Below, piece by piece: positions 3,795-27,793 of a DNA stretch of 64,000 bases. Below the pieces are notes generated by a model. That model worked only from the letters and a program-made list of their open reading frames with translations. It was not told where the DNA came from and did no database searches. The position numbers were made by a program, and so were the translations under genes. This DNA comes from a virus (lineage: Duplodnaviria; Caudoviricetes): positions 32,001 through 96,000 of IMG/VR virus record IMGVR_UViG_3300049009_000874; one strand, written 5' to 3'. The first letter of the stretch is position 1. Each line of letters starts with the position of its first letter.

Positions 3795-3836
3795 CCGAAA
3801 GCTGTAAGCCGAACAAAAAAAGGAACGAGGTGATTT

Positions 3837-6855: not shown

Positions 6856-6928
6856 TCTTGTCAAAAGACGGCTTTTGATTTAGATTCTCCCTCATGTCTT
6901 TTCCAGGCGCGAGTAAGTGGGTTTCGCT

Positions 6929-8284
6929 ATGAAGGTTGAAATCGTCGGTTTCGAGCATTTGCATTTACACTCCGACTTCTCCGTCCTCGACGGGCTTGGA
7001 ACGTGCGAGGAGTACGCCCTCCGCGCCACCCAGATAAACCAGAACTTCCTCACCATCAGCGACCACGGAATGCTCGGCGCCGTACCGAGGCAGATACGAG
7101 CCTGCGACAAGGTCTGCGACAAGTTCGGCAAGGACAAGCTTTCCCCCATATTCGCCACCGAGCTTTACGTCAACAGGCTTCAGCCGCAGAGCAACTCGCT
7201 CGAGGACATGCAGAAGTTCTCTGGAGACCTTTCCCCCGAAGAGTTGCTGGAGCTCCGCCCAAGCCCCCACCTCCTCGCCATAGCGCACAATGAGATCGGC
7301 TACAAGAACCTCGTGAGGCTCACCAGCTGGGGCTGGACCAAGGGGTTCTACCGCAAGCCGAGGGTGAACTACGAGCAGCTCGAGAAGCACAAGGAGGGCT
7401 TGCTCTTCACGAGCTGCTGCTACAACAGCGAGATCGGGCGGGCGTTCGAGTCCGGCGGCGAGGAGGCTGCGCTCTCCATGATCGACAGGTATGTCGGGAT
7501 GTTCGGCAGGGAGAACTATTTCCTCGAGATAATGCTGCTTGATTTCGTGAAGCAGAAGCCCTACGACGCCTTCATAGTCAAGGCTCACCAGAAGACTGGT
7601 CTGAAGATAATCCTTTCGAACGACGTCCACTACTGCCGCAAGGAGGACAGCAAGCTGCAGCGTCTCATGCTGATGGTGCAGACCGGCAGGACGATACAGG
7701 ACATAGAGAAAGCCATGAAGGAGGACTCCATGCAGGACTTCTTCGAGCTGCAGGACAGCAACCTCTGGATGAAGTCGGAGGAGGAGATCAACGAGAAGTG
7801 GCTGAGCCACTACAGCGACGTCATCCCTTACGAGATATTCTGCGAAGCCAAGAAGAACACGGTCGAGATTTGCAGGAAGGCGAAAGGGGTGCAGCTGGAC
7901 AGGAGCCTGAAGCTTCCCGTCTTCCCGGACTGCGACGAGAGGCTCAAGGAATATGTCGTCATCGGGTTCAGGGGCAGGAATCTCCCTTCGACCAGGGAAT
8001 ACAGGGACAGGATCAAGGAGGAGCTCAGCCTTATCATAAGGAAGGGGTTCAGCACGTACTTCCTCATCCAGAAGATGATGACGGACGAGGCTAGGAAATG
8101 GTGCAGGGAGAACGTCGGCGGCGACGGGACCCAGGCTGTGGGTCCGGGGCGCGGATCCGCTTGCGGTTCGCTGGTGTGCTACTGTCTAGGGATAACGGAC
8201 GTCGACCCGGTCTACGAAGGTCTGCTGTTCAGCAGGTTCATGAGCGAAGCCCGCGGGGGAAGGTCTATCTGCTTCGATGCCTGA
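6929..8284 (+). CDS. dnaE: DNA polymerase III alpha, N-terminal polypeptide (PHP domain plus first part of palm/thumb)
   Basis: HLHLHSDFSVLDG, TISDHG, NDVHY, GPGRGSACGSLVCYCLGITDVDP, LLFSRF; stops before PDIDxD. Confidence 0.93.
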   Translation: MKVEIVGFEHLHLHSDFSVLDGLGTCEEYALRATQINQNFLTISDHGMLGAVPRQIRACDKVCDKFGKDKLSPIFATELYVNRLQPQSNSLEDMQKFSGDLSPEELLELRPSPHLLAIAHNEIGYKNLVRLTSWGWTKGFYRKPRVNYEQLEKHKEGLLFTSCCYNSEIGRAFESGGEEAALSMIDRYVGMFGRENYFLEIMLLDFVKQKPYDAFIVKAHQKTGLKIILSNDVHYCRKEDSKLQRLMLMVQTGRTIQDIEKAMKEDSMQDFFELQDSNLWMKSEEEINEKWLSHYSDVIPYEIFCEAKKNTVEICRKAKGVQLDRSLKLPVFPDCDERLKEYVVIGFRGRNLPSTREYRDRIKEELSLIIRKGFSTYFLIQKMMTDEARKWCRENVGGDGTQAVGPGRGSACGSLVCYCLGITDVDPVYEGLLFSRFMSEARGGRSICFDA

Positions 8285-9332
8285 CGTTTCTGGCATGGAG
8301 GTCTATGTCTCTCTCGACCATGTCCTTCACCAGCGAAGAGAAGTTCGTTTTCGGTTTCCACCCTAGGCTTTCCCTGGCTTTGCCGGACACCCCCCTCAGC
8401 GCGTCGATCTCTAGCGGCATATTGAGGGAACTGTCTATCTCGACCTTACCCTTCCATTCCCCGAGACCTGCGCAGACGAACGCCTGGCTCAGGAATTCCT
8501 CGACGGAATGGGTCTCGCCCGTCGATATCACGAAATCCTCAGGGTCGTCATTCTGGAGCATCATCCACATCGCCAGGCAGTAGTCCTCGGCGTGACCCCA
8601 GTCCCGCATAGACGATATGTTCCCTAGCTGAAGCTTGCCTTCGGACAATCCGTTCTTCTTCCTGCCGATCCAGCTCGTTATCTTCCTTGTCACGAAATCC
8701 TCGCCCCGCCGCGGGCTTTCGTGGTCGAACAGTATTCCCGAGCAGGCGAACATCCCGTGGGACTTGCGGTATATGCTTATGAGGTTGTGGGCAGCCAGCT
8801 TGGATACGGCGTAAGGGGAGTTCGGGGACATGCATGTCCGCTCGTCCTGGAAGGCTTCGAGGTCGAGGAACTCCTTCGGGTCGACCTTCCCGCTCCGTTC
8901 CGCCCTGTTGCCGTCCTTGTCGATGAACGAGAAGCACGACCCGAACATATCGCTCGTCGAAGCCTGGTAGACCCTGGAGCGCCAGGAATGGTTGACGACG
9001 GCTTCGATGAGGTAGAGAACCCCCTTGAGGTCAACGTCTATCGTGTAGGAGGGCTGGATGAAGGACTCTCCGACATGGCTCTGGGCAGCCAGGTTGTATA
9101 TCTCGTCCGGCTTGTGCTCCGAAACGACCTTCCGCACGAACAACGGGTCGCATATGTCCCCCTGCACCACCGAGAACCTCCTGTGCCCCAGCACGGTCTC
9201 CAGCCTGGACATGTTGTTCGAGGACGACCTCCTCGAGATGCCGGTCACCTCGTATCCCTTGCCCAGGAGGATCTCCGAAAGGTAAGATCCGTCCTGTCCT
9301 GTGACTCCGAAAACCATGGCTGTTTTTGACAT
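8265..9332 (-). CDS. gmd: GDP-mannose 4,6-dehydratase
   Basis: GVTGQDGSYL, YNLAAQSHV, SPYAVSK, HESPRRGEDFVTRKIT, RDWGHAEDY. Confidence 0.96.
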   Translation of the reverse strand: MSKTAMVFGVTGQDGSYLSEILLGKGYEVTGISRRSSSNNMSRLETVLGHRRFSVVQGDICDPLFVRKVVSEHKPDEIYNLAAQSHVGESFIQPSYTIDVDLKGVLYLIEAVVNHSWRSRVYQASTSDMFGSCFSFIDKDGNRAERSGKVDPKEFLDLEAFQDERTCMSPNSPYAVSKLAAHNLISIYRKSHGMFACSGILFDHESPRRGEDFVTRKITSWIGRKKNGLSEGKLQLGNISSMRDWGHAEDYCLAMWMMLQNDDPEDFVISTGETHSVEEFLSQAFVCAGLGEWKGKVEIDSSLNMPLEIDALRGVSGKARESLGWKPKTNFSSLVKDMVERDIDLHARNVRHRSR

Positions 9333-10146: not shown

Positions 10147-10183
10147 GAAAAGGGCTGGCTTGATATTCAAGCCAGCCCTTTTC
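10147..10183. terminator. bidirectional intrinsic terminator
   Basis: Perfect 17-bp inverted repeat GAAAAGGGCTGGCTTGA-tat-TCAAGCCAGCCCTTTTC between convergent genes. Confidence 0.9.
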
Positions 10184-10187
10184 TCGT

Positions 10188-13100
10188 TTAGCAACCCTGA
10201 TCGTCATAGCCGTTGAAGAAGAACGTGTGGGTTGGAGGGTTTGGCGGCGAACCGGGATATGTGGCTGCCCTTGTGTGCGACAGCGTGCCCGAGCCGGCAT
10301 ATCCGCTGAGAGACACGGTTATAGAGGTTCCGACCGGAACATTTACGGCTCCAAACGAAATTGCGGACGACGAGTTGCTTATGGTGCCGCCCGGACCCCA
10401 GGATGTCGTGTAGCTCATCGATCTGGATCCCGGGGTAAGAGCGGAAGAGACGCAAGACGGGGAATTGTATGGATAAACGCAATCGCCGCCGCATCCGTAA
10501 GCCTGGAAGTAAATCTTGATCGTCAATGGCGGCAAGTTGCATGACCCTAAAATGCATTCTTCGCCCGGTTCGCAGTCGTTTCCGCATTCCCCGCAGTTTG
10601 CTTCGTCTGTCTGGAAGTACGAGCTGTCCCGGCAAGTCCCGGCGCAGCATGTTTGCCCCGCAGTGCAGGCGTTTCCGCATTCCCCGCAGTTTGCTTCGTC
10701 CGTCTCGAGGGAGCTGGTGGCGACGCATGAGCCGGCGCAACAAGTTTGTTCCGCGGTACAAGGTTGTCCGCAACCGCCGCAGTTTGCTTCGTCCGTCTGG
10801 AGGGAACTGGTGGCAATACATTCCCCGCAGCATGTTTCGCTTTCAGCGCAAACGATTCCGCAGTTCCCGCAGTTGGCTTCATCCGTCTCGAGGGAAATGG
10901 TGTCGATACATGACCCGGCGCAACATGTTTCCCCGGCGGCGCAAGGTTGTTCGCAACCGCCGCAGTCGGTTTCGGAGGTCTGGAAGTACGAGCTGTCCCG
11001 GCAAGTTCCGCCGCAACATTCCCCGCCAGCGCAAGGTTGTTCGCAGCCTCCGCAGTTGGCTTCGTCCGTATCGGTGTTCACGCACGACCCGCCGCAACAT
11101 GTTTCCCCGGCGTCACAAGCGATGCATAGCAGACCGCAGTTTGATTCGTCGGTATCCGTATCCTTGCAGTCTCCGCCACAGCAATGACCCGTAATGCATA
11201 CATTTCCGCAAGATCCGCAGTTACTATCGTCGTTCCCGTAGATGTCTTTGCATTCCCCTCCGCAACATTCCAAGTCTCCGGTGCATTTGTTCGGACATGA
11301 ACCGCAATGGTCCTTGTCGTTGTCGAGATTTTTGCAAGAGCCATCGCAGCATGTCTGTTCCGCGAGGCAAACATTCGGACATGTTCCGCAATGACCTTCA
11401 TCGTTCTTTGTGTCTACGCATGTATCGTTCGGAAAATCACCGCAACATGTAAGTCCGTCGGGGCATGAGCCGCCGCAAGGTGCGCATGTCGGGAAATGCT
11501 CGGATTCGTCTTCGTAAACAGATGGACAGCCACCATTGCAAAGCGTGCCCCCTGGGTGTTCATGATCGCAACAGGTATAGTTGCTTGGATTAGCCCCATA
11601 AGTTCCAAGAATGTCGTAGTTGCAACCTACTGCGTCGTGCCCCCATGGAGCCGTGCATTTATATTCCGAAGGGTTATCATAGTCAAGATACCTGCAACTT
11701 GCGCATGGTCCTTCTCCGGCGGAACAATATCCCACAGAAGGGCATGCATTTCCATGTGCCTCCGCAAAGGCTCCCGTGCATTCCGGGACATTGCAGGAGT
11801 CGTAGCATTCGCAACTGACGAGTTCCCATTGCAGGTTATTCACGTTCCCTATCGCCTTGTATTCGCAGCCTCCGAAGCATGTTTTTGCCGGCAGCGAGGG
11901 ATTTGGCGGCGGATCTGATGGAGGACATGCGTCATAGGTGCATGGTATGGTCGTTCGTTGACCCCAGAAGGTTGGCGCAGATCCCAACAAAAAAGCTTGT
12001 TGGGATTCTGTCGGAAGTTTGCATGTTCCGCACGGAACACACTCGCCATTCACGCATTTTGTCGTTGGAGGATCGCCCGACTCAGGGCATTCAGCACCAC
12101 TTTCCACTGCGTTGCATTTATTCCCGCAACCGCCGCAGTTGTCGTTGTCCGTATTTGGGTCTACGATAGTCGCGGTCGGTTTTGGTAGATCGCCATAAAT
12201 ATTTGGAGGACCCCACTTTGGGCAGCAAATATCAGTGCCAACAGTTCTAATCCCGCAACCGCCGCAGTTGTCGTTGTCCGTCAAAGTGTTAACGGGTTCC
12301 CCATCACAGCACTTTTGTTGCACTTGATCGGATGTATCCACAGCGTTCCCGCAACCGCCGCAGTTTTCGTCATCGGTGTTTGGGTCTACTTGAGTGGCTG
12401 TCGGTCTTGGTAGCTCGCCATAAATATCTAGTGGACCCCAATGTGGGCAGCAAATCTTAGGAGCTTCAACCCTAACGCCGCAGGCGCCGCAGTTGTCGTC
12501 GTCAGTCAAAGTGTTAACGGGTCCCCCATCACAGCACTTTTGTTGCACTTGATCGGATGTATCCACAGCGTTCCCGCAACCGCCGCAGTTTTCGTCATCG
12601 GTGTTTGGGTCTACTTGAGTGGCTGTCGGTCTTGGTAGCTCGCCATAAATATCTAGTGGACCCCAATGTGGGCAGCAAATCTTAGGAGCTTCAACCCTAA
12701 CGCCGCAGGCGCCGCAGTTGTCGTCGTCAGTCAAAAGGCTGACTGGTTCACCCTCACAGCATTTTTGTTGCACTTGATCGGATGTATCCACAACATTCCC
12801 GCAACCGCCGCAGTTCTTGTCATCGGTGTTTGGGTTTACTTGGGTTGCGGTTGGTGGTGGTGGATCGCCATATGCATCTGGAGGACCCACATGCGGGCAG
12901 CAAATCTTAGGCGCAAGAGCCCTAGTGCCGCAGGCACCGCAGTTGTCGTCGTCAGTCAAAAGGCTGACGATCTCACCATCACAGCATTTCTCTTTTACAT
13001 ATGGCGATGTGTCCGCGACATTCCCGCAACCGCCGCAGTTTTCGTCATCGGTATTCGTGTTGGTAATAAAGAAAGTTGATTCGTCTGGAGCGCCAGCAAT

Positions 13101-16100
13101 AACAACTGGTTTCGGACAGCAGGATGTCGGATCTGTTGGATTGTCTGGATCGGCTGTGTCTCCGCAACTCAAGCAATTTTCATTTGACCCTTTTGCCGTC
13201 GGAACCCCGTCGCAGCAAAGTTCTTCGGCTACTACTTCGCAATCGCCGCAATTTTCAAGATCACTAAGTACATCTATGCACGAGCCACCGCAGCATTTTG
13301 TTCCTTCTCCGCAAGCGTCGCCGCAATCGGAACAGTTGGTGTCTGTGCCGACGTCGGTGCATTCGTTTTCGCAACACATCTGTCCTTCCGTGCATGAGTT
13401 CGGACAGTCACCGCATGGATTGTCAATGCATGTTCCAGAACAGCATTTCTGTTCCGGATAGCACACTGGAGTTTGGCAAGACGTGCAACGTCCATTCCCG
13501 TCACAGTATTGATCCGCGGTGCAACATGCCTTGTTGTTCCCAGAGCCACAGCAAATCGTTCCGGCGTCGCAACACTCGCCGTTGCAGCAGGTCGTTCCGG
13601 GAACTGTACATTCGCATTCCACGCACCCGCCGCCTTCTCCGCAATAATCGGAATCCGCGCAGCACCCGTCATTGCAGCAAACCTTGCAGCATGTCGTTCC
13701 GCCTTCGCAGCATGTTTCGCCCTCGGCGCACGGAGAAGGGCATTCTGCGCAAACTCCATCTTTGCAAGCCTGTCCTTCAGCACAAGGGGCTGCATCACAA
13801 CTACCGCAATGGGCGGTGTCGGTCTGCATGTCAACGCATTGCGAATCACAACATGTCTTTCCGTTTGGGCAAGGATTTGGAACGCAAACGCTTCCGTCCC
13901 CGCTGCAACCGGCGGCGCAGTTCTCCGCCCCGATGTACTCTCCTATCTTCGCCTGGGTTTCAGCGTTGAACGATGCTTTTGGTATACAGTAGGTTGGCAT
14001 ATCTTGTCCTTCTATGTTATTTACACAAAAATATATATCTCCGACACACGCCAATTTATCGTCAACACATGACAATCTGTCGTCCGCGCAATACGTGTAG
14101 TCCGGTTCTTGTCCGCAAGTGCCATAAAAAGCAGAATACCCAGGCTCCTCGTGTAAAACCCAAGCACCTCCCACGGCATCAAAATAACAAGATCCATCAC
14201 AGCTTACTGTATTTCCAACGCATGAAGCCACGAAAGCGACATCGTTCGGTTCGGGTTGTGGAGGCATTCCCTGTTCGTATCCCTGACACTCACATTCTGG
14301 TTCCGCACAGTTTCCCAAGAAGCATTTCGGAACTGTAAATGTGTCGCCTGGAGGTTCTTGGCATGTCAATCCGCAGATCCCGCAGTTGTCGGGATCAGTT
14401 TTTAGGTTTCTGCAAACGCCATTGCAGCATTGCCACAGATTGATCTGGTTGATTCCTTGCGGACACTCTATTCCGCAGTCACCACAGTTGTACATGTCGT
14501 TGAGAGGGTTCTTGCAAACCCCACCGCAACATATAAATCCAGGAGCGCAAGCGTATCCGCAAGAGCCGCAGTTGCTCTCGTCAGACCATATGTCGATACA
14601 TGAATTGTTGCAGCAAGCGGTTCCAGCCGCAAGACATGGAGGGTTGCATGCCAAGCAAACTCCATTTACGCACGAGTGTCCTCCGACACATACGGTTCCG
14701 CAATTCCCGCAGTTGTTGTTGTCGGTGTTTCTGTTCACGCAATTGCCGTCGCAACAGGTGTTTCCGGCAGGACAGCAATTGCCGTTGCAGCATGTTTCGT
14801 TAATGCCACAAGGATGGTAGCAAGATCCACAATGGTTTACGGAAACATTTAAAGGTATGCATTCGTAATTGCAGCACTGAATGTTGAGGGCAGGATCGAA
14901 AGCGCATTGGAAGTTGCAACTTCCGCAATTAAATGTCGAGTCTTTTATGTTTTGGCATCCCCAGGCTGTTTCGTCATAACAACATGTTTCTCCTTCCGCA
15001 CAAACACTGCCGCAATATCGGCAATTGTTAGGATCGGTCCGTAAGTCTTTGCACTCGCCATCGCAGCATGTCTGTGGAGTCGTGCTTCCCGGACCGCTGC
15101 AAAATGTAACGCAATCTCCGCAAAAATCCGGGTCGTTGTAGATGTCCTTGCAAGTTGGTGTTCCATCGACGGTGCAGCAGCCGTCTTCTGTGCAGCATTC
15201 GCCGTTGCAGCAGAACCCCAGAGGAAATAGACACGGAATTCCGCAACCGCCGCAATTTGCGTTGTCGTCATTTGTGTTTTTGCACTCACCGCCACAGCAT
15301 TCTTGTCCTTCTCCGCATGCCGGGACGCAACTGGCGCATTCGTAGGTTACGACCTGACCATCGGTACCATCTGCCGTCGGCGCTTCTCCTGGACAGTTGC
15401 ATCCCTGTGGGCATGTCGCAGTCGCAGTCCATGATCCAGCCAACGCCCTTACTGTTCCGTTTTCATCCTCGTCTGTTGACAATGCGTGGAATGAGGGATA
15501 CATGCACACGCAGTTTTGAAAAGCAGTTTGTCCAGACAGGCAAACATCCGATGGCATTCCGGGAGCGACTTTTCCAGTACAACCAGCGGGGCAGTCATCG
15601 GGTGTAGTCCAGCTTCCAGTAAGAAAAACAGGATTCGAAGGGTCTTCTGGACAAGAAGGACTTGGCAACCAAGTCCAGTTAATTGTAACATTGCAATCTT
15701 CTGGAAGGCACTGACCACATGGTTCGAGAGCTTCAGGTGGAGACCATATTTTATATTCGGCACCAAGACATGTTGGGCGATCAGGAACTCCGATAGCTTC
15801 ATAATCAAAACAGCAAGTCGAATCTCCAGTTGAACAATTTTCTTCTGTTGGCACAAGACTAGTCAAGTAAAAACCCAACTGAGCATTTCCATTACTAGGA
15901 TCGTTAGCAAGGCAGGTGTAAGTTTTACAGCACCCAGTAGTAGTAGTACATGGCTCTGGACTCCATGTCAGGTAAAAAAAACCTGTAGATTCTGGGCTTC
16001 CATCGCAAGGTATATTTGGAGGGCTATCGACAGAGCAATCTGTAACTGACGGGTATTGCGATTGAAACACATACTCATTTTCAGTCGAACAGACATAACG

Positions 16101-16784
16101 GCTACAACATCCAGTAACGGTTTCTTCACCCCAAGTCCAAGAACAGTTGTTCAACGCGCAAGGGTCTTTGCAGACACCATTGTCGCATATTTTACCGGAC
16201 GCACATGGAACACCGCAACCACCGCAGTTCGATGTGTCGGAACCCATGACGTTCACGCAAGAACCGGAACAGCAGCTTTCCCCGGCAAGGCAAGTATTTC
16301 CGCAATAGCCGCAGTTCGCAACATCTGTCTGGAGTGATTCCGTGTCGATACAATCGCCGGTGCAGCATGTTTCCGAAGGTTCGCAAGCTATTGTGCAAGA
16401 ACTGCAATGGTCATGATCAGTTTGCAGATCCACGCAAACATTGTCACAGCATGTCTCTGATGGTTCGCATTGAACGCCACCACAGAGGCAGCAGGTGCCG
16501 GTGCATTCGACTTGAACGATACCTTCGCAGCACCCGATTAGGGTTTCATTCGATCCTTCGAAGTCAGGATCGCATGGAGGAGGATTTGTCGGCAATCCGG
16601 GCGGCGGAGAAGATGAGCATCCTTCCGGACAAGGAACAGTCAGAACCCACTGGACATTGTCAAGTGGTCCGCCACATTTTCTCGGGTCCCAAACTACAGC
16701 TTCATAAGAGGCAGAGTGTCCGCAACCTTTTTCGGCAAGTGCGAAAACTATATCCCAATTCTCCACCAGTTTTGGATCTATCAT
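10188..16784 (-). CDS. giant Cys-rich protein of STIG1-like repeats (2198 aa)
   Basis: Dozens of D-x2-NCG-x-CG-x2-C-x(4-5)-CC-x-G-x-C units; beta-rich non-repeat C-terminus. Confidence 0.85.
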   Translation of the reverse strand: MIDPKLVENWDIVFALAEKGCGHSASYEAVVWDPRKCGGPLDNVQWVLTVPCPEGCSSSPPPGLPTNPPPCDPDFEGSNETLIGCCEGIVQVECTGTCCLCGGVQCEPSETCCDNVCVDLQTDHDHCSSCTIACEPSETCCTGDCIDTESLQTDVANCGYCGNTCLAGESCCSGSCVNVMGSDTSNCGGCGVPCASGKICDNGVCKDPCALNNCSWTWGEETVTGCCSRYVCSTENEYVFQSQYPSVTDCSVDSPPNIPCDGSPESTGFFYLTWSPEPCTTTTGCCKTYTCLANDPSNGNAQLGFYLTSLVPTEENCSTGDSTCCFDYEAIGVPDRPTCLGAEYKIWSPPEALEPCGQCLPEDCNVTINWTWLPSPSCPEDPSNPVFLTGSWTTPDDCPAGCTGKVAPGMPSDVCLSGQTAFQNCVCMYPSFHALSTDEDENGTVRALAGSWTATATCPQGCNCPGEAPTADGTDGQVVTYECASCVPACGEGQECCGGECKNTNDDNANCGGCGIPCLFPLGFCCNGECCTEDGCCTVDGTPTCKDIYNDPDFCGDCVTFCSGPGSTTPQTCCDGECKDLRTDPNNCRYCGSVCAEGETCCYDETAWGCQNIKDSTFNCGSCNFQCAFDPALNIQCCNYECIPLNVSVNHCGSCYHPCGINETCCNGNCCPAGNTCCDGNCVNRNTDNNNCGNCGTVCVGGHSCVNGVCLACNPPCLAAGTACCNNSCIDIWSDESNCGSCGYACAPGFICCGGVCKNPLNDMYNCGDCGIECPQGINQINLWQCCNGVCRNLKTDPDNCGICGLTCQEPPGDTFTVPKCFLGNCAEPECECQGYEQGMPPQPEPNDVAFVASCVGNTVSCDGSCYFDAVGGAWVLHEEPGYSAFYGTCGQEPDYTYCADDRLSCVDDKLACVGDIYFCVNNIEGQDMPTYCIPKASFNAETQAKIGEYIGAENCAAGCSGDGSVCVPNPCPNGKTCCDSQCVDMQTDTAHCGSCDAAPCAEGQACKDGVCAECPSPCAEGETCCEGGTTCCKVCCNDGCCADSDYCGEGGGCVECECTVPGTTCCNGECCDAGTICCGSGNNKACCTADQYCDGNGRCTSCQTPVCYPEQKCCSGTCIDNPCGDCPNSCTEGQMCCENECTDVGTDTNCSDCGDACGEGTKCCGGSCIDVLSDLENCGDCEVVAEELCCDGVPTAKGSNENCLSCGDTADPDNPTDPTSCCPKPVVIAGAPDESTFFITNTNTDDENCGGCGNVADTSPYVKEKCCDGEIVSLLTDDDNCGACGTRALAPKICCPHVGPPDAYGDPPPPTATQVNPNTDDKNCGGCGNVVDTSDQVQQKCCEGEPVSLLTDDDNCGACGVRVEAPKICCPHWGPLDIYGELPRPTATQVDPNTDDENCGGCGNAVDTSDQVQQKCCDGGPVNTLTDDDNCGACGVRVEAPKICCPHWGPLDIYGELPRPTATQVDPNTDDENCGGCGNAVDTSDQVQQKCCDGEPVNTLTDNDNCGGCGIRTVGTDICCPKWGPPNIYGDLPKPTATIVDPNTDNDNCGGCGNKCNAVESGAECPESGDPPTTKCVNGECVPCGTCKLPTESQQAFLLGSAPTFWGQRTTIPCTYDACPPSDPPPNPSLPAKTCFGGCEYKAIGNVNNLQWELVSCECYDSCNVPECTGAFAEAHGNACPSVGYCSAGEGPCASCRYLDYDNPSEYKCTAPWGHDAVGCNYDILGTYGANPSNYTCCDHEHPGGTLCNGGCPSVYEDESEHFPTCAPCGGSCPDGLTCCGDFPNDTCVDTKNDEGHCGTCPNVCLAEQTCCDGSCKNLDNDKDHCGSCPNKCTGDLECCGGECKDIYGNDDSNCGSCGNVCITGHCCGGDCKDTDTDESNCGLLCIACDAGETCCGGSCVNTDTDEANCGGCEQPCAGGECCGGTCRDSSYFQTSETDCGGCEQPCAAGETCCAGSCIDTISLETDEANCGNCGIVCAESETCCGECIATSSLQTDEANCGGCGQPCTAEQTCCAGSCVATSSLETDEANCGECGNACTAGQTCCAGTCRDSSYFQTDEANCGECGNDCEPGEECILGSCNLPPLTIKIYFQAYGCGGDCVYPYNSPSCVSSALTPGSRSMSYTTSWGPGGTISNSSSAISFGAVNVPVGTSITVSLSGYAGSGTLSHTRAATYPGSPPNPPTHTFFFNGYDDQGC
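10576..11160. repeat. imperfect ~115-120-bp coding repeats (TDEANCGxC...TCCxGxC)
   Basis: Repeated ccgcagtttgcttcgtc and tggaagtacgagctgtcccggcaagt blocks. Confidence 0.8.
12121..13060. repeat. ~4 tandem copies of a 225-bp (75-aa) coding unit
   Basis: cc(a/c)tcacagc recurs at 12301, 12526, 12751 and 12976; the middle copies are nearly identical. Confidence 0.92.
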
Positions 16785-18064
16785 TTTGTTTCCACCTTTT
16801 CAGATGGAGTTATGTTCTGTACTTTTTGCGATGCCAATATTTGGTCTGGTATAACCTTGAATCTCAACTTGTGCGACTTGAAGATTTCAATCACTTCATC
16901 TTTTTTCCCTGGATCTATTTCCCTGTTCGAAACGATCTCTATGAAATCGTTTCCGCAATTCACCTGCCTTATCTCCGTCAGACCGGTTTCCATCAGCTTC
17001 TTCTTGTATTCGTTGATCGAATGCCCTTTTATGGCGAAGGGACGGTTCTCCAGGAACTTGAATTCCCTGTACAACCTTCCGCAAGAGCATCTCTGGTATT
17101 TATCGCCTATCTTGCACCTGTCTCCGTTCCAGAATTTGACGAAAGGACAAGCCAAGGAGAAGTAATCGGTCGACACGAGCCTTTCCTCGTTTTCGACACA
17201 CCAGGAGAGGTTATCCATCAAATGATAGTTCTTGTCCCTGCATGTAAAGAATGAGGAGCCACCATCCCAACATCTCATATGATCGCATATATGTGACACA
17301 TAGTTGTTGTCGAGAAGAAACTTAGAGTCTTCATCTAGAATTTTTTCATTACTATTACTTAACAAGTTGCACAGTTTCCCCTTATAGTTTTCCTTTTTGA
17401 TGTAAGAGCATATTTTTTTTATTTGCGGTCCGGGAGCGAATATCACATCCATTTTTTTTGCATTCAAATATTTGAGTAGATATTTTTGGAATACTTCTTC
17501 TTTTTCTTTTTGGAGTTTCGTGTTTGCGTAATGGACCATTGCGGTTCTTTTCGTTCCGTGGTGTTCCATGAAGTTCTTGCTTTTCGATGTGTTGCTTATG
17601 GGTCTTGGACCACTTCCGAACGAGGAGTTGAAAAAGTACATGATGTGTGGATTCTGTGGTATTTCGTATTCGTCTAGAATTAGGTCGTAGTGGTTTTCTC
17701 CTTCGATGAAATAAAGGAAAGGTTCCCATCGCAAGTACTCGAATCCCTCGCCGGTGGTGCTTCCGCTGCTTTTCATCGGCATGGATTCAGCTTCCAGGCA
17801 TTTCACGTACCACTTGCTTTTGTCTGCGAGATCCTTTTTCACAAAAAAAGGCAGGTCTTTCTTGTTCGCGTAAGCTTCGGAATGCCTCTCAGCCCAGGAC
17901 GATATGTTTCTTTTCAGTATGTCTATCGTCTCGGCGACGAGTTCCTCGTCGTGCAGGAGTAGGTCTTTGCATATTGGCTTGTAGTCGTAGGGAATTTGCG
18001 TGGAAGGATCGGCGAAGTTTTTCCACTTCTGGATGAACTGTTTTATTTCCTGTGTATTCCGCAT
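16781..18064 (-). CDS. CapK/PaaK (phenylacetate-CoA ligase)-like adenylate-forming enzyme
   Basis: P-loop-like SSGSTTGE; LVSTDYF..CPFVKFWNGD and RCSCGR...LENR resemble the PaaK/CapK C-terminal motifs. Confidence 0.75.
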   Translation of the reverse strand: MRNTQEIKQFIQKWKNFADPSTQIPYDYKPICKDLLLHDEELVAETIDILKRNISSWAERHSEAYANKKDLPFFVKKDLADKSKWYVKCLEAESMPMKSSGSTTGEGFEYLRWEPFLYFIEGENHYDLILDEYEIPQNPHIMYFFNSSFGSGPRPISNTSKSKNFMEHHGTKRTAMVHYANTKLQKEKEEVFQKYLLKYLNAKKMDVIFAPGPQIKKICSYIKKENYKGKLCNLLSNSNEKILDEDSKFLLDNNYVSHICDHMRCWDGGSSFFTCRDKNYHLMDNLSWCVENEERLVSTDYFSLACPFVKFWNGDRCKIGDKYQRCSCGRLYREFKFLENRPFAIKGHSINEYKKKLMETGLTEIRQVNCGNDFIEIVSNREIDPGKKDEVIEIFKSHKLRFKVIPDQILASQKVQNITPSEKVETK

Positions 18065-18735
18065 CCGTCCCTCAGAAAGAAATTAAGTGTTACCTTGTTG
18101 GTGTGACTCCATTTCACATCGGGAACCCATCTCGAGACTATGTCCCAGTCGTTGCACTTTTTAACGTAGCGCCAACCTCCGTGTTTTTCTATGAGGTATC
18201 TAGTGTGCATAATCTCAGAAGTATCTATATAACCAGCCTTTGGAATATCGTTGTGAATTCTCTCCCCGACAACTTTTTTGTTGGAATCGTAAAGTCTGGT
18301 TCCCGTGTAGCACATGTCGCTTTTCGTTTCGGTTATGGTTCTGTAGAGGGACTCTATGTGGTCCGGCTCATACCAGTTGTCGTCGTCCAGATAGGCTATG
18401 AGATCGTGCTTCGTGTTCATTATGGCGAAGTTCCTGGGAGCCCATCCTGCTCCGCTGTGGTTGACCGGGAGCGTGAAGAACTTGAACCTCTCGTCCTTGG
18501 AGCATATGTCCTCGAAATATTTCTGGGTGTATTTGCAGTTGTCGCATTCCAGGCATGTCCTTTCGAAATTGCTGAAAGTGCAGGCTTCGGAGCATCCGTC
18601 CTTGACGACGTAGCAGTCGAAGTTCTTGAATGTTTGTTTCAGAAGTGATTCCGTGCACCTTTCTAGCCACTCTGGGCTTGAGTGGTAGGTAGGCAGGCAT
18701 ATAAGAACTTTATCCAGACATCCATGTCTTGACAT
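18043..18735 (-). CDS. glycosyltransferase family 2
   Basis: ICLPTY, SLLKQTFKNFDCYVVKDG, PRNFAI, IAYLDDDNWY, CNDWD. Confidence 0.9.
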   Translation of the reverse strand: MSRHGCLDKVLICLPTYHSSPEWLERCTESLLKQTFKNFDCYVVKDGCSEACTFSNFERTCLECDNCKYTQKYFEDICSKDERFKFFTLPVNHSGAGWAPRNFAIMNTKHDLIAYLDDDNWYEPDHIESLYRTITETKSDMCYTGTRLYDSNKKVVGERIHNDIPKAGYIDTSEIMHTRYLIEKHGGWRYVKKCNDWDIVSRWVPDVKWSHTNKVTLNFFLRDGCGIHRK

Positions 18736-18782
18736 TTACCTCCTTGTGTAAAAATCTAACGAGAAACTATCTTTGTTTCTCG

Positions 18783-19781
18783 TTAGATTTCGTCAACAGG
18801 TCCGGGAACTGGTCCCATCTTTTTCAGCGCCTTGTGAGCGTGGTGGCGGTGGCGGTGTCCGCCGATCGATTTCGAAAGGGCTGAATCGCCTTCGCCATCT
18901 TCGCCGTCATGGTCCTCATCGCCTTCGCCGTCATGGTCCTCATCGCCTTCGCCGTCATGGTCCTCATCGCCTTCGCCATCTTCGTCGTTTTCCATGTCTT
19001 CATCGTCTTCATCTTCATGATCTTCATCGCCTTCGTCACCTTCCATGTCTTCATCGCCTTCATCTTCATGGTCTTCTTCACCTTCGCCTTCTTCGTCACC
19101 TTCCATGTCTTCATCCCCTTCACCTTCGCCGTCAATTTTGAACTCATCGTCTTCCTCTTCGCCATTGCTTGAGTCGCCATCCATATAGCCCATCTCGTTC
19201 ATCATTTTCTGGAATGTGTTGTTGACTTTTATCTCCTCGATGATGGCTTTGATGGTGTTCTCGTGCTTGCAGGCTTCCGACAAGAACGAATCTATGAGGT
19301 TGCTTCTTTTTAGTTCCATGACAAGCTGTGACATGTTCGCTTGCGACTTGGAGCATAGATGTACTGCTTCCTTGATCTGACCATAGGACATGTTGCTTGT
19401 TTCGTTTCGCATCCCGCTTATGAAGCTGGAATTGCTCATGTTCTTCGTGTTCCTCAGCCATTCGGACACGCTTGTGGTTTTCGGCCAAGTCGGAAGCTTC
19501 TCGTGTTCTGATGACTTAACGACGGTTTCTGGCTCGTAAACCAATTCCTTGTCTCCCATGTCCGCGAACCCATCAGATGACTTGTTTGGGTTTTTTGCCA
19601 TTTTGTTCGCCATATATGGCTTTGGAGCCATGTTCGATTTTGCCCCGCCAGCGTTCTTGTCCACTTCAGCCTTAGGTGGAGCGGACGAGCTTGGTCCCTT
19701 GTAATCCGGAACCATCTCGGTTGCTGGGGTTTTGATTTTTTTGTCGTGGGTCAAATATTCTTGAAAACTTCTGAATGCCAT
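18783..19781 (-). CDS. protein with capsid-targeting-like N-terminus, long acidic repeat tract and His-rich tail
   Basis: MAFRSFQEYL; (GDEDHDGE)n; GGHRHRHHAH. Confidence 0.8.
   Translation of the reverse strand: MAFRSFQEYLTHDKKIKTPATEMVPDYKGPSSSAPPKAEVDKNAGGAKSNMAPKPYMANKMAKNPNKSSDGFADMGDKELVYEPETVVKSSEHEKLPTWPKTTSVSEWLRNTKNMSNSSFISGMRNETSNMSYGQIKEAVHLCSKSQANMSQLVMELKRSNLIDSFLSEACKHENTIKAIIEEIKVNNTFQKMMNEMGYMDGDSSNGEEEDDEFKIDGEGEGDEDMEGDEEGEGEEDHEDEGDEDMEGDEGDEDHEDEDDEDMENDEDGEGDEDHDGEGDEDHDGEGDEDHDGEDGEGDSALSKSIGGHRHRHHAHKALKKMGPVPGPVDEI
18899..18977. repeat. 24-bp tandem repeat x3 within a larger degenerate acidic tract
   Basis: cttcgccgtcatggtcctcatcgc, three exact copies. Confidence 0.92.
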
Positions 19782-21093: not shown

Positions 21094-21144
21094 TATCTAT
21101 AGTAGCTTGATGGAATATTTCTCTTATTGGAAAAGGCAAAAGCC

Positions 21145-23883
21145 ATGCTTAATTCTTACGAAAAGATAGAGAAACTTCTCTGGCACATATTCGACCGCAA
21201 GAGCCTTTCCGACAAGCACAGGAAGAGGCTGGAGTGGGAACTCCGCGAGATAGATGTCCAAGGGAAGTCCGACCACCTCATAAAGATGTTCAAGGACAAG
21301 GTTCGGTGTGACGGAAACGAGAACAACCTGATTTCATTCTGGCTCCTTGGCTTGTGCCAAGAATTCGACGTGGACCGCGACCCGAAATTCACTCAGGGCG
21401 ACATGCCGGACATAGACGTCGACTATCTCAGCGAGGTCAGGGACTACCTGAAGAACAAGTGGGCTTGCGAGACGTTTGGCGTGGACTACGTCTGCAACAT
21501 CGGCAACTACACGACCTTCGGAATCAAGAGCGCGTTGATCGACATGGCTAGGGTTCACGGTCTTCCAAGGGGTGATATGCTCGAGCTAACCAAGAACCTC
21601 GACGCCAAGGACGACGAGGGGAAGACGATGACCTGGGAGTCGGCGATGAACCTCTACCCGAAACTCAAGGAGTACTGCGACGCCAACCCGGACGTTGCCG
21701 AGTCGGCGCGCAAGCTCATAAACAGGAACAGGGGCATGGGTCAGCACGCCGGGGGTCTGATCATATCGTCGATGCCACTCCACGATCTGGTGCCGCTCGT
21801 GAAGAGGAAGGACAATCCGCAGGCGTCAGCCTGGGTCGAGGGTCTGAACGGACAGGACCTCCAGCCAGTCGGTCTGGTGAAGTTCGACCTCCTCGTGATC
21901 TCGAACCTGCAGCAGATATCGAGTTGCTGCGAGCTCGTGAAGAAAAACCACAACATGGACAGCATATGCGCCCTCCCCGGGCAGTCAGACTGGAGCGACG
22001 TCCAGAGGTGGAGGAACGACCCGAAGTCTTTGGCTATGGCTGACGTCGGGGACCTGAAGTGCATATTCCAGTTCGACAGCGAGGGCATCAGGAGGCTGGT
22101 CAAGTCCGGGGGCGTGGACCGTTTCGAGGATCTCGTGGCGTATACAGCCCTCTACAGACCCGGTCCGCTCGGAATGCTCATGCATGAAAGGTACACCAAG
22201 AGGAAGAGGGGCGAGGAGTCCTACGAGTTGCACCCGCTGGTCCAGCCAATACTCGGCGACACGTACGGGGTGATGGTGTACCAGGAGCAGATCATGCGCA
22301 TACTGAACAAGGTGGGCGAGATCCCGCTGCGGGACTGCGAGATCGTGCGGAAGGCTATATCCAAGAAAAAGGTCGAGGCATTCCAGAAGTACAAGAACAT
22401 GTTTGTCTCAAACGGACAGAGGAACCTCCAGACGACGGAGGAGGACATCATCAGCCTTTGGAATCAGGTCCAGGCTTTTTCTGAGTACGGATTCAATAAA
22501 AGCCATGCCGTCGCGTACACCTACGTCTCGGCGAGGCTGCTTTACTTCAAAGCCCATTACCCGCATGAGTTCTACACCTCGGTTCTGGGCTGCGAGACCT
22601 TGTCGGAGAAGATCAAGGAGTACAAGATAGAAGCCAAGAACCACGGCGTCGACATGCACGGCGTCGACATCAACAAGTCGAAGTCCACCTTCGAGCTGGT
22701 TGGGGATTCCATCTATTACGGTCTATCGAACGTCAAGGGCGTAGGTCAGGTTCCGGCGAAGAAGATCGTCGACAACCAGCCCTACGCCGGGTTCGAGGAT
22801 TTCCTCACGAGGTTCGGCACGGACGCCAACATAGTGAAGTGCGTCGTTGGTCTAAGGTGCTTCAGTGACTCGAACCCGATAACCTTGTGGAAGTTCTACG
22901 AGCACTTCAAGGAATGCCAGAAAAAGCTCGACGACAAGAAGAAAAGGTTCCTGGCGAGCATGGAGCAGTACGACGTCGAATTCCTCGAGCTTTTCCCCGG
23001 AGAGACCAGAAGCCTTTCCGAATTCCACGGCGACAGCCCATTCGACGGACCGGAATGGGCTGGCTTCGACATCGACGAGGTCATAGAGACCGAGAAGACC
23101 GTCGAGTGCGACCAGAGCCAGGGCAAGCCGAAGCTCGAGATGGAGTATGTCCCGATCCAGGGCACCGACGACTTCGTCGAGGTCCAGACGATCAGGAACT
23201 ACAAGTCGATCAAGGTGAAAAAGAACTGGAACAGGCTGAAGGAGCTGAAGAGGCTGTGGTCGAGAAGGGAAAAAGCCATGGCTAGGCTCGAGGACTCCAA
23301 GTCGTTGTCGCTGCCGACGCTCGCCTCGTTCAAGCCAAACGATTTCGAGATAGACAAGGATTTCGCCAAGGAACTGCGGAACAAGGTAGCCTGCGAGATG
23401 AAGTATTACGGTTTCGCCTGGATACACAACGTGGAGAACAGCCCGGACTTCAAGGGCAACACGTTCCAGACGCTGAGGGAGAACGACGGCTGCGTCTGCC
23501 CCGTCGAGGTCGAGGTCGTCTCGAGGAAGGTTTGCAAGAGCAAGAAGGGCAATTCCTACCTGCAGCTCGAGGTCGAGGACGCCATGGGCGAGAAAAACCG
23601 CCTGAACGTCTGGGAGGACGATGTTGCCCGCTGGGACAGAGAAATGAAGAAGGGTAACTTACTTAGGTTGAGGCTGATGCCGCCGGACAAGGGCTTCTCA
23701 ACGTATACCCTGGAACAGAACAAGAAGATGCCGAACAAGGGCTGGGCTTACAGGTTTCCGACCAAGGACAGCGACTACAGGGTTTTCGTGATGAAGCCGC
23801 CGGTGTCGGCGGAGGACAAGTACCAGACCGAGGACGAGGTTCTGGAACAGTTTGGAAATTGCATAATGGAGGACAAGAAATGA
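21145..23883 (+). CDS. dnaE: DNA polymerase III alpha, C-terminal polypeptide (catalytic palm, fingers, HhH, OB)
   Basis: MPDIDVDY, GQHAGGLII, GLVKFDLL, IFQFDS, LYRPGP, TYGVMVYQEQIM, YGFNKSHAVAY, GLSNVKGVG. Confidence 0.95.
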   Translation: MLNSYEKIEKLLWHIFDRKSLSDKHRKRLEWELREIDVQGKSDHLIKMFKDKVRCDGNENNLISFWLLGLCQEFDVDRDPKFTQGDMPDIDVDYLSEVRDYLKNKWACETFGVDYVCNIGNYTTFGIKSALIDMARVHGLPRGDMLELTKNLDAKDDEGKTMTWESAMNLYPKLKEYCDANPDVAESARKLINRNRGMGQHAGGLIISSMPLHDLVPLVKRKDNPQASAWVEGLNGQDLQPVGLVKFDLLVISNLQQISSCCELVKKNHNMDSICALPGQSDWSDVQRWRNDPKSLAMADVGDLKCIFQFDSEGIRRLVKSGGVDRFEDLVAYTALYRPGPLGMLMHERYTKRKRGEESYELHPLVQPILGDTYGVMVYQEQIMRILNKVGEIPLRDCEIVRKAISKKKVEAFQKYKNMFVSNGQRNLQTTEEDIISLWNQVQAFSEYGFNKSHAVAYTYVSARLLYFKAHYPHEFYTSVLGCETLSEKIKEYKIEAKNHGVDMHGVDINKSKSTFELVGDSIYYGLSNVKGVGQVPAKKIVDNQPYAGFEDFLTRFGTDANIVKCVVGLRCFSDSNPITLWKFYEHFKECQKKLDDKKKRFLASMEQYDVEFLELFPGETRSLSEFHGDSPFDGPEWAGFDIDEVIETEKTVECDQSQGKPKLEMEYVPIQGTDDFVEVQTIRNYKSIKVKKNWNRLKELKRLWSRREKAMARLEDSKSLSLPTLASFKPNDFEIDKDFAKELRNKVACEMKYYGFAWIHNVENSPDFKGNTFQTLRENDGCVCPVEVEVVSRKVCKSKKGNSYLQLEVEDAMGEKNRLNVWEDDVARWDREMKKGNLLRLRLMPPDKGFSTYTLEQNKKMPNKGWAYRFPTKDSDYRVFVMKPPVSAEDKYQTEDEVLEQFGNCIMEDKK

Positions 23884-27575: not shown

Positions 27576-27664
27576 CAAGATACTCCGTTTGCATTTATTA
27601 TAACAAAATCGGAGTTGGAAAACTAGATATATGTGAACCAAGGTTACCAAAAGAAAGGACTCCA

Positions 27665-27793
27665 ATGCTTACTTGCATTTTTTGTTTCTTGGCTGGACTC
27701 GTAATCGGCTGGAATTTCCTGCCCCAACCAGCTTGGGTCAAAGATATAGTGGGAAAAATGTTCGGAAAAAACAACGGAGATACAAATGTCTAA
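27665..27793 (+). CDS. 42-aa membrane protein
   Basis: AAGGA RBS; MLTCIFCFLAGLVIGWNFLPQPAWVK. Confidence 0.7.
   Translation: MLTCIFCFLAGLVIGWNFLPQPAWVKDIVGKMFGKNNGDTNV

What the first reader, a model, noticed from the sequence alone, without database searches (positions are those of the whole stretch)
10188..18735. Coupled operon: GT2, CapK/PaaK-like ligase, giant Cys-repeat protein (candidate dedicated protein-decoration system)
Seen: three minus-strand genes with overlapping boundaries (GT2/ligase overlap 22 nt; the ligase stop and giant-gene start share ATGA at 16784-16781), closed by a strong terminator, with gmd about 0.9 kb beyond. Established: CapK-like adenylating enzymes occur in capsule and glycan loci and activate carboxylic acids; GT2 enzymes transfer sugars, and some (e.g. 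SunS) S-glycosylate Cys. Inference: the two enzymes glycosylate and/or acylate the Cys/Thr-rich repeats, giving a modified virion fibre for receptor binding, mimicry or shielding. I know of no described system with this layout. This is the top candidate in the window.
Basis: partly seen in the sequence, partly recalled or inferred. Interest (0 to 1): 0.88.

Follow-up and report, generated by a model that had tools for sequence, protein, structure and literature searches.

The report
Phage ligase-glycosyltransferase module for tagged giant proteins
A huge freshwater phage carries a tightly coupled sugar-transferase, acid-activating ligase and 2198-residue cysteine-repeat protein. The same ligase recurs in many uncultured phages, always followed by (or fused to) a highly variable adhesin-like protein that starts with one conserved short tag, which suggests an undescribed dedicated protein-decoration system.

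Summary
Three minus-strand genes overlap by 22 nt and by ATGA. They are bracketed by two hairpins; the 3' one has a 17-bp stem (-30.8 kcal/mol). GMD lies 856 nt beyond.

- **Identities:** a GT2 with an invariant DDD motif; a Pfam-less enzyme that folds as a PaaK-family adenylate-forming ligase (Z 22, P-loop SSGSTTGE); and a Stig1/MXAN_6577-type protein (330 Cys, net charge about -235, no signal peptide).
- **Linkage:** In the clade at least 44% identical, 24 of 30 loci keep GT2 with the same 22-nt overlap.
- **Downstream gene:** every readable one encodes a Cys-, Ser- or Thr/Pro-rich protein of 97 to over 2667 aa. Its body is unrelated between lineages (lectin, Ig-like, fn3, FGE-sulfatase domains). 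Its N-terminus carries one conserved tag, [DN]-h-h-F-[SA]-L-x-x-K, at residues 11-20.
- **Natural fusions:** GT2-, GT47-, GT9- and DUF3431-ligase, and ligase fused to tag-bearing Cys-rich tails.

The best reading is a cytoplasmic glycan-adding and glycan-tailoring pair acting on a tagged, fast-evolving fibre or adhesin. The chemistry, the acceptor residue and virion location are inferred. Cys S-glycosylation specifically is not supported.

First-stage readers of this scan noted the same operon in other genomes.

The parts
18043..18735 (-). GT2 glycosyltransferase, 230 aa, soluble. It has a DxD motif (D117-D119) and a Cys-rich insert.
   Evidence: PF00535 at 8.2e-20, 71.8 bits against a cut-off of 23.3. 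The D117/D118/D119 motif is invariant in 20 orthologues. There is no hydrophobic segment. The nearest PDB sequences are GalT1 5hea, SpsA and TarP.
16781..18064 (-). PaaK-family (ANL) adenylate-forming ligase-like enzyme, 427 aa, from a family with no Pfam model.
   Evidence: AF2 model pLDDT 87. Foldseek E 8e-15 to BT_0428, PaaK, NatL2, AjiA1 and ClxA. VIA Z 22 to PaaK1/2 against Z 12-14 for other ANL enzymes. The P-loop SSGSTTGE and the WNGD and R341/K346 motifs are conserved. There is no Pfam, PHROG, NCBIfam or PDB sequence hit.
10188..16784 (-). Giant Stig1/MXAN_6577-type Cys-repeat protein, 2198 aa, very acidic, with no signal peptide or TM segment.
   Evidence: PF04885 at 7e-89 in 16 stretches. 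NF041328 scores 140 bits against a cut-off of 100. There are 330 Cys, and D+E 307 against K+R 72.
16650..16784 (-). N-terminal tag mini-domain (residues 1-45). The core motif D-I-V-F-A-L-A-E-K is at residues 11-19 (window 16728-16754).
   Evidence: The motif hhF[SAVT][LMF] occurs at residues 11-20 in 18 of 22 downstream proteins, against 2.2% of 2062 control ORFs. It occurs once per protein, only at the N-terminus. Alignment. In a natural fusion it is predicted as a beta-strand of a confident hairpin module.
10147..10183 (-). Terminator-like hairpin closing the operon.
   Evidence: 17-bp stem, -30.8 kcal/mol, z -8.5.
18757..18785 (-). Hairpin plus T-run upstream of GT2, followed by an AAGGAGG SD site (18739-18745).
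   Evidence: -13.5 kcal/mol, z -4.6.
12120..13052 (-). 225-nt tandem repeats (4.1 copies, 87% matches) inside the giant gene. A second array lies at 10577-11073.
   Evidence: Gene size varies from 835+1099 to over 2667 aa among ligases that are 74-92% identical to the window's.
8265..9332 (-). GDP-mannose 4,6-dehydratase. It is a possible sugar-donor supplier and is not in the operon.
   Evidence: PF16363 at 2.8e-105. It is absent from the close relative L002. GMD or SDR genes lie within the flanks of 11 of 48 related loci.

Best explanation
This is a dedicated, cytoplasmic protein-decoration module of huge freshwater phages. The downstream gene encodes a fast-evolving, modular, adhesin- or fibre-like protein. 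Its only conserved part is a roughly 25-45-residue N-terminal beta-hairpin tag (core [DN]-h-h-F-[SA]-L-x-x-K).

Proposed steps:
1. The GT2 transfers a sugar from a nucleotide sugar onto this protein. In some genomes the donor is probably made by a nearby GMD, epimerase, GlmS or HldE.
2. The PaaK-like ligase activates a carboxylate as an acyl-adenylate. It then tailors the attached glycan (amide or ester formation, as proposed for the PaaK/CapK-like VpsH) or the protein next to the tag.
3. The tag serves as the docking element for the ligase, or as the element that commits the protein to the pathway.

Shown: gene identities, folds, coupling, conservation, the tag and the fusions.
Inferred: that the giant protein is the acceptor, the chemistry, the acceptor residues, the role of the tag and virion location.
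For: 1. The trio is conserved with identical overlaps (22 nt; ATGA) in phages with different replication modules. One example is L004, which has PolA rather than split DnaE. GT2 is present in 24 of 30 evaluable loci of the clade at least 44% identical.
2. The downstream proteins are unrelated in body (two BLAST groups plus singletons) but share the N-terminal tag.
3. Natural ligase-tail fusions exist in 8 protein clusters, with 1-3 tag copies each preceding a Cys-rich module. One tail is 80% identical to residues 24-97 of the window's giant protein.
4. Natural GT-ligase fusions involve four unrelated GT types: GT2, GT47 and DUF3431 at the N-terminus and GT9 at the C-terminus, followed by HldE.
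5. GT-ligase fusions are again followed by tag-bearing or variant-tag proteins: L125 (97 aa, Cys-rich) and L124 (over 808 aa).
6. The tag tracks the ligase, not GT2. It is present in the fused, GT2-less clade and next to a roughly 30%-identical ligase (L100).
7. Catalytic motifs of both enzymes are invariant.
8. Downstream bodies carry Laminin_G_3 x5, Big_12, PKD/DUF285, fn3 and FGE-sulfatase domains joined by TP or poly-Ser linkers. This is adhesin-type architecture with classic O-glycosylation substrates.
9. Precedent: the PaaK/CapK-like VpsH is genetically required for the glycine amide on GulNAcA of Vibrio polysaccharide (PMC13463779).
10. Phage virion proteins are known to be glycosylated by phage GTs (Freeman 2023, as cited in PMC12619734).
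Against: - No biochemical or proteomic evidence exists for any modification.
- The window's own giant protein is not Ser/Thr-rich (S 6.3%, T 8.3%).
- The conserved A10 catalytic lysine of ANL enzymes could not be located in the family consensus.
- The ligase-tail fused clade lacks any GT2 nearby, so glycosylation cannot be obligatory for the ligase's role.
- More distant ligases are followed by a methyltransferase-like protein of about 270 aa rather than a tagged protein.
- The cluster lies in the replication region, not among structural genes.
- The first tag copy in the fused model has low confidence.
Confidence: 0.5

Rival explanations
1. The ligase acts directly on the tagged protein without a glycan intermediate. 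It adenylates a small acid and transfers it to a Cys thiol or Lys amine close to the tag (LuxE-like acyl-protein or thioester chemistry). Alternatively, it ligates the tag region covalently to another protein. GT2 is an optional add-on.
For: - The tag tracks the ligase, not GT2, and the ligase-tail fusions have no GT2 nearby.
- A Cys usually follows the tag within 1-12 residues.
- Thioester formation is the canonical second half-reaction of PaaK-type enzymes (established knowledge).
- Tag-proteins can be as short as 97 aa.
Against: - Four different GT families are fused to the ligase, which ties its chemistry to sugars.
- TP-repeat bodies have no Cys near the tag (L011 has 0% Cys in the 193 aa that could be read).
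- The Ser and Lys of the tag are not invariant.
Confidence: 0.2
2. GT2 and ligase build or tailor a glycan that is not on the giant protein, for example a host envelope polysaccharide or another virion protein. The giant protein is merely co-expressed. It could be a lectin-like binder of that glycan, or an unrelated late or early product placed there for regulatory reasons.
For: - GT2 and CapK-like pairs are typical of polysaccharide loci.
- Several downstream proteins carry lectin-type domains.
- The cluster sits away from structural genes.
Against: - Ligase and tag-protein occur as a single polypeptide in 8 clusters.
- Start/stop overlap is conserved across at least 20 lineages.
- All three proteins are soluble with no TM segment and no lipid-carrier enzymes nearby.
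- The tag is conserved while the bodies are swapped.
Confidence: 0.15
3. The tag is a virion-assembly or packaging anchor, and the ligase-like protein is a non-catalytic or chaperone-like assembly partner. The coupling ensures stoichiometry rather than modification.
For: - The tag is a predicted beta-hairpin at the extreme N-terminus.
- Translational coupling suits 1:1 complexes.
- The A10 lysine was not identified.
Against: - The P-loop, the A7 GD and other active-site-type residues are invariant over 35 sequences down to 42% identity.
- Fusions to GT domains make little sense for a chaperone.
- A T4-like L-x-E cleavage or targeting signal is not conserved in the tag.
Confidence: 0.1

Closest known systems
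PaaK-family ANL ligases (PaaK1/2 2y27/2y4o, BT_0428 4r1m, NatL2, AjiA1, ClxA) and CapK-like glycan-tailoring enzymes such as V. cholerae VpsH
   Same: Two-domain PaaK fold (Z about 22). P-loop and A7/A8-type motifs. Occurs with glycosyltransferases and NDP-sugar enzymes. VpsH is needed for the amino-acid amide on a uronic acid (PMC13463779).
   Different: There is no detectable sequence membership: no Pfam, NCBIfam or PDB hit, and the profile search gives E 0.66 to ClxA. It has an invariant CDHMRCWDGG and CxCGR Cys/His cluster. It was found only in viral and metagenome contigs. It is coupled or fused to a tagged protein rather than sitting in a Wzx/Wzy locus.
Dedicated cytoplasmic glycosylation of adhesins: serine-rich-repeat adhesin Gtf systems (Fap1/GspB; GalT1 5hea) and autotransporter heptosyltransferases (Aah/TibC, GT9-like). 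The functional details are recalled knowledge.
   Same: Soluble GTs are encoded next to a large repetitive adhesin that they modify before export or assembly. The window GT2's best PDB sequence hit is GalT1. One ligase lineage is fused to a GT9-like domain and followed by HldE.
   Different: The system is phage-encoded. It has an obligatory PaaK-like ligase and a conserved N-terminal tag on the substrate candidate. Bodies are not restricted to Ser-rich repeats. No accessory Sec or autotransporter machinery is present.
Mycobacteriophage virion glycosylation (Freeman et al. 2023, cited in PMC12619734)
   Same: Phage-encoded GTs decorate phage structural proteins.
   Different: There the targets are the C-termini of capsid and tail-tube subunits. 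No ligase, no tag and no giant hypervariable protein is involved.
Stig1 (PF04885) / MXAN_6577-like (NF041328) cysteine-rich repeat proteins
   Same: 16 Stig1 stretches, with scores above both curated cut-offs.
   Different: This one is phage-encoded, 2198 aa, without a signal peptide or lipobox. It carries the N-terminal tag and is translationally coupled to enzymes.
Leader-guided modification of RiPP precursors (logic only)
   Same: There is a short conserved N-terminal recognition-like segment ahead of a hypervariable Cys-rich body. Multi-copy tag-module arrays occur in the fusions, and a 97-aa tag-protein exists.
   Different: Substrate candidates reach over 2600 aa with folded domains. No RRE, protease or exporter was seen. 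The enzyme classes differ.

Membership tests
ANL / PaaK-family adenylate-forming enzymes | Two-domain PaaK-type fold | tested here: met
   VIA Z 22.2 (rmsd 3.1 over 281 residues) to PaaK1. Foldseek E 8e-15 to BT_0428. Other ANL enzymes score Z 12-14.
ANL / PaaK-family adenylate-forming enzymes | A3 P-loop [ST]SG[ST]TG and A7 (Y/F)xxGD motifs | tested here: met
   SSGSTTGE at residues 99-106 and WNGD at 312-315. G101, G314 and D315 are invariant, and S100, S102 and G105 are at least 90% conserved.
ANL / PaaK-family adenylate-forming enzymes | C-terminal A10 catalytic lysine | tested here: inconclusive
   No conserved Lys is seen in the C-terminal consensus. No residue-level structural superposition was available.
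ANL / PaaK-family adenylate-forming enzymes | Sequence-model membership (Pfam AMP-binding/CapK_C, NCBIfam) | tested here: not met
   No family at E up to 0.01 (Pfam) or up to 1 (NCBIfam). Language-model neighbours include clusters in which a minority of members carry CapK_C (12% and 25%) and which are named phenylacetate-CoA ligase.
ANL / PaaK-family adenylate-forming enzymes | ATP-dependent carboxylate adenylation | not testable with these tools
   Needs ATP-PPi exchange or AMP-release assays.
GT2 glycosyltransferases | GT-A domain above the Pfam threshold, with a DxD motif | tested here: met
   PF00535 at 71.8 bits against 23.3. D117-D118-D119 are invariant in 20 orthologues.
Stig1 / MXAN_6577-like Cys-rich repeat proteins | Repeated Cys-rich Stig1 module above curated cut-offs | tested here: met
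   PF04885 at 292.9 bits in 16 stretches. NF041328 at 140.4 bits against 100.
S-glycosyltransferase systems (SunS/ThuS type) | GT2 dedicated to Cys acceptors in the partner peptide | tested here: inconclusive
   Orthologous GT2s (E 1e-92 to 1e-100) sit upstream of Cys-poor bodies. L011 has 0% Cys in the 193 aa read, and L010 has 3%. Cys therefore cannot be the general acceptor, but this does not exclude it here.
Dedicated adhesin-glycosylation systems (SRRP Gtf, Aah/TibC) | GT encoded beside, and acting on, a repetitive adhesin | tested here: inconclusive
   Adjacency and fusions are met. Modification itself is not testable here.
Virion fibre / decoration protein | Presence in the virion; homology to known fibre or decoration proteins | tested here: inconclusive
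   No PHROG hit for the giant protein. Relatives carry lectin, Ig and fn3 domains. No proteomics is available.

The most novel reading that the evidence does not exclude
A new class of phage post-translational modification system with RiPP-like logic at the scale of whole proteins. A short N-terminal beta-hairpin tag would recruit a phage-specific PaaK-like ligase, with interchangeable glycosyltransferases. These would covalently decorate, or covalently attach, hypervariable adhesin proteins ranging from 97 to over 2600 residues.
Probability: 0.2. Interest if true: 0.85.

Novelty: new variant of a known kind. Interest (0 to 1): 0.7.

Why it matters
If the reading holds, huge phages encode their own machinery to decorate a rapidly diversifying surface or adhesin protein. 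The components are a previously unannotated ligase family (362 representatives among 1.84 billion proteins) and swappable glycosyltransferases.

- That would add a route of virion or particle surface chemistry bearing on host recognition, adherence and shielding.
- It would give a function to a Pfam-less enzyme family.
- It would supply a compact tag-plus-enzyme pair that can be tested directly by co-expression and mass spectrometry.
- The tag gives a simple sequence handle for finding these otherwise unalignable giant proteins in metagenomes.

Tried and rejected
- **Reference phages.** blastn of the enzyme genes and tblastn of the ligase against 50,697 phage records found nothing.
- **Cellular genomes.** A motif scan of GTDB genomes found no cellular relative. 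This was a motif-based scan, so absence is not proven.
- **Extended ligases as hidden GT2 fusions.** P0118 and P0090 were tested by Pfam and hhalign. The result was negative. P0090-type extensions proved to be tag-bearing Cys-rich tails instead.
- **Tag as a T4-type capsid-targeting or L-x-E cleavage signal.** Rejected, because the acidic P1 residue is not conserved.
- **GMD as part of the operon.** Rejected. There is a hairpin plus two opposite-strand ORFs between, and GMD is absent from relative L002.
- **Second PaaK-like ORF in the genome (L120).** It is not related to this family by profile.
- **Literature.** Searches for Stig1 with phage, and for CapK with phenylacetate-CoA ligase, found no description of this module.
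Full report
**Setting.** The window is bases 32001-96000 of a 189-kb IMG/VR viral contig. CheckV estimates it as 39% complete, so the phage is roughly 0.5 Mb. Its DnaE-type polymerase is most similar to that of a 595-kb uncultured phage.

**Observation.** All stated features are present.
- The three minus-strand ORFs are 18043-18735 (230 aa), 16781-18064 (427 aa) and 10188-16784 (2198 aa).
- The GT2 stop lies 22 nt inside the next gene. The ligase stop and the giant-gene start share ATGA.
- A perfect 17-bp hairpin follows the last stop directly (-30.8 kcal/mol, z -8.5). It has only a weak U-tract, and the simple terminator scan missed it.
- A second hairpin with a T-run separates the upstream acidic-protein gene from an AAGGAGG ribosome-binding site before GT2. 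The trio is therefore a bracketed unit.
- GMD (8265-9332) lies 856 nt beyond, but two small plus-strand ORFs lie between, so it is outside the operon.

**Identities.**
- *GT2.* It is a clear family member: PF00535 at 71.8 bits and an invariant DDD motif. It is soluble. Its nearest solved sequences are GalT1 of the Fap1 adhesin pathway, SpsA and TarP, which are generic matches.
- *Middle protein.* It has no hit in Pfam, PHROGs, NCBIfam or PDB sequences. An AlphaFold model built from 35 homologues (pLDDT 87) is a PaaK-family adenylate-forming enzyme. Foldseek gives E 8e-15 and VIA gives Z about 22 to PaaK1/2, BT_0428, NatL2, AjiA1 and HCL, clearly above other ANL enzymes at Z 12-14. The P-loop SSGSTTGE, WNGD and a hinge-like R341...K346-G347 are conserved, together with a family-specific CDHMRCWDGG and CxCGR cluster. 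The A10 lysine could not be identified.
- *Giant protein.* It is a Stig1/MXAN_6577-type repeat protein. It has 330 Cys, net charge about -235, no hydrophobic segment, 22 'TDxxNCGxCGxxC' cores and internal tandem DNA repeats.

**Comparative evidence: linkage.** The ligase family is small and was seen only in viral and metagenomic contigs. The indexed search found 276 proteins. An exhaustive profile search of 1.84 billion proteins found 362 representatives. A motif scan of GTDB genomes found none. I fetched 34 viral and 75 metagenomic loci plus several assemblies, which gave 84 unique ligases.
- In the clade at least 44% identical to the window's ligase, GT2 orthologues (E 1e-58 to 1e-168) lie upstream in 24 of 30 evaluable loci. 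In nearly all of them the overlap is the same 22 nt.
- In every unfused locus of this clade where the contig continues, a large low-complexity gene starts within -20 to +12 nt of the ligase stop. The exception is L005, where it starts 90 nt downstream.
- This holds in phages with a different replication module, for example L004, which has PolA.

**Comparative evidence: the downstream proteins.** They are not one alignable family.
- Close relatives carry Stig1 arrays of 835+1099, 1438, 1454, 1500, 2198, 2317, 2654 and over 2667 aa, although their ligases are 74-92% identical to the window's.
- Other lineages carry Thr/Pro repeats (up to 45% Thr), poly-Ser linkers or other Cys motifs.
- They also carry adhesin-type domains: Laminin_G_3 x5, Big_12, PKD+DUF285, fn3 and a C-terminal FGE-sulfatase/C-lectin-like domain.

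**Comparative evidence: the tag.** What the downstream proteins share is the extreme N-terminus. It often starts M-[KR]-L-G-[EQD] and always carries the core [DN]-h-h-F-[SA]-L-x-x-K at residues 11-20.
- A loose regex finds the core in 18 of 22 downstream proteins. L014 and L015, which the script missed, also have it. The same regex matches 2.2% of 2062 control ORFs.
- It occurs once per protein, only at the N-terminus, even in proteins of 2600 aa.
- L004 and L010 have a variant tag. The L005/L124 clade has another (K-K-F-x-h-F-Q-Y).

**Comparative evidence: natural fusions.** Two kinds tie the parts together.
1. *Ligase fused to tag-bearing tails.* Eight protein clusters fuse the ligase C-terminus to tails of about 170-310 aa. 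These tails contain 1-3 tag copies, each preceding a Cys-rich module. One tail is 80% identical to residues 24-97 of the window's giant protein, although its ligase is only about 47% identical, which indicates module exchange. These fused genes have no GT2 nearby. In an AlphaFold model of one fusion, the last tag is a beta-strand of a confident hairpin module (pLDDT 78-90). The first tag copy is not confident. Contacts with the ligase could not be inspected.
2. *Ligase fused to glycosyltransferases.* The N-terminus is fused to GT2, GT47 or DUF3431 domains. The C-terminus is fused to a GT9-like domain followed by an HldE heptose-activation gene. Where DNA was available, these fusions are again followed by tag-type proteins: a 97-aa Cys-rich protein in L125 and a poly-Ser protein of over 808 aa in L124.

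NDP-sugar enzymes (GMD, GlmS, SDR epimerases) lie within 8-10 kb in 11 of 48 longer loci.

**Mechanism.**
- The ligase is the constant partner of the tag. The glycosyltransferase is variable and sometimes absent. The ligase's repeated fusion to four GT types ties its chemistry to sugars.
- The closest functional precedent found is V. cholerae VpsH. This PaaK/CapK-like protein is genetically required to add glycine to the carboxylate of GulNAcA in the VPS repeat unit (PMC13463779).
- PaaK-family NatL2, AjiA1 and ClxA, which are the structural neighbours, form esters or amides directly from adenylates (titles; chemistry from established knowledge).
- I therefore favour, at about 0.5, that GT2 glycosylates the tagged protein in the cytoplasm and the ligase tailors that glycan or its attachment site, with the tag as docking element.
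- Protein bodies rich in TP and poly-Ser linkers are classic O-glycosylation substrates. The analogy is with serine-rich-repeat adhesin Gtf systems, Aah/TibC heptosylation of autotransporters (recalled knowledge) and mycobacteriophage virion glycosylation (cited in PMC12619734).
- The rivals are direct acylation or ligation of the tag region, a glycan made for another target, and a non-catalytic assembly role. They are listed separately with their tests.
- Cys-specific S-glycosylation has no specific support, because orthologous enzymes serve Cys-poor bodies.

**Novelty.** The parts are of known kinds. The arrangement appears undescribed: a Pfam-less, apparently phage-restricted PaaK-like ligase tied by coupling and fusion to a tag-bearing hypervariable protein, with interchangeable GTs. 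Literature searches found nothing. First-stage readers of this scan noted the same operon in other genomes. Those notes are unchecked, but my locus survey confirms the recurrence.

**Limits.**
- There is no biochemical, expression or proteomic evidence.
- Virion location is inferred only from domain content in relatives.

Noticed in passing
window 6917-8284 (+) and 21127-23883 (+): The DnaE-type polymerase is split into an N part (phrog_405 positions 42-439) and a C part (positions 441-1094). The whole minus-strand cluster (GMD to the acidic protein) lies in the 12.8 kb between them. The relatives L002 and L003 (ligase 74% identical) have the same split, with the trio between the halves (PHP/DNA_pol3_alpha 405 aa and 1335 aa).
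   Followed up: partly
window 18783-19781 (-): A 332-aa extremely acidic protein (net charge -56, 14 His) has perfect 24-nt tandem repeats encoding a GDEDHDGE-like motif. It lies directly upstream of GT2. A 330-aa gene sits in the same place in L002 and L003. It has no family hit.
   Followed up: partly
G000:C1 about 131.4-134.5 kb (locus L120; outside the window): A second, unrelated PaaK-like ORF (P-loop TSGSTGEP, no Pfam hit, not matched by the A1 profile) lies convergent to a 496-aa RCC1-repeat protein that ends in a Stig1 domain. This is a second ligase and Stig1 adjacency in the same phage.
   Followed up: partly
window 24887-27665 (-): A 361-aa ORF with a sub-threshold GT2 match (21.5 bits against 23.3) overlaps by 17 nt a 569-aa ORF with no family hit. 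It may be another enzyme-plus-unknown pair just past dnaE-C.
   Followed up: no
window 1722-6618 (+): Three ORFs match phage families of unknown function, including one annotated as sporulation protein. The equivalent genes in L002 are DUF444 (YeaH-like) and SpoVR, next to dnaE-N. In L018 a SpoVR gene lies directly upstream of another ligase-family gene.
   Followed up: partly
L020:11399-13540: A GMD gene interrupted by an intein with a LAGLIDADG domain (713 aa) lies just downstream of a distant ligase-family member. In L016 a free-standing LAGLIDADG endonuclease sits where GT2 normally is.
   Followed up: no
P0096 (ligase-tail fusion) compared with window 16494-16715 (-): The fused tail is 80% identical over 74 aa to residues 24-97 of the window's giant protein, while the ligase domains are only about 47% identical. 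This points to recent exchange of tail modules between divergent phages.
   Followed up: partly
window 10180-10188, 18758-18784, 44380-44388, 44764-44772: The 9-mer AACGAGAAA occurs 5 times against 0.97 expected (0 of 100 shuffles reach 5). At both ends of the trio it starts the hairpin right after a stop codon, so it may be a shared terminator or processing motif.
   Followed up: partly
L040, L090, L093, L095, L098, L107, L038 (downstream of distant ligases): A different ligase clade (about 30-35% identical) is followed, with a 4-17-nt overlap, by a conserved protein of about 270 aa. It starts 'MDxRLExIxALLxLSKQ', and one member has weak methyltransferase matches. The ligase family therefore has at least one other dedicated partner type.
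   Followed up: partly
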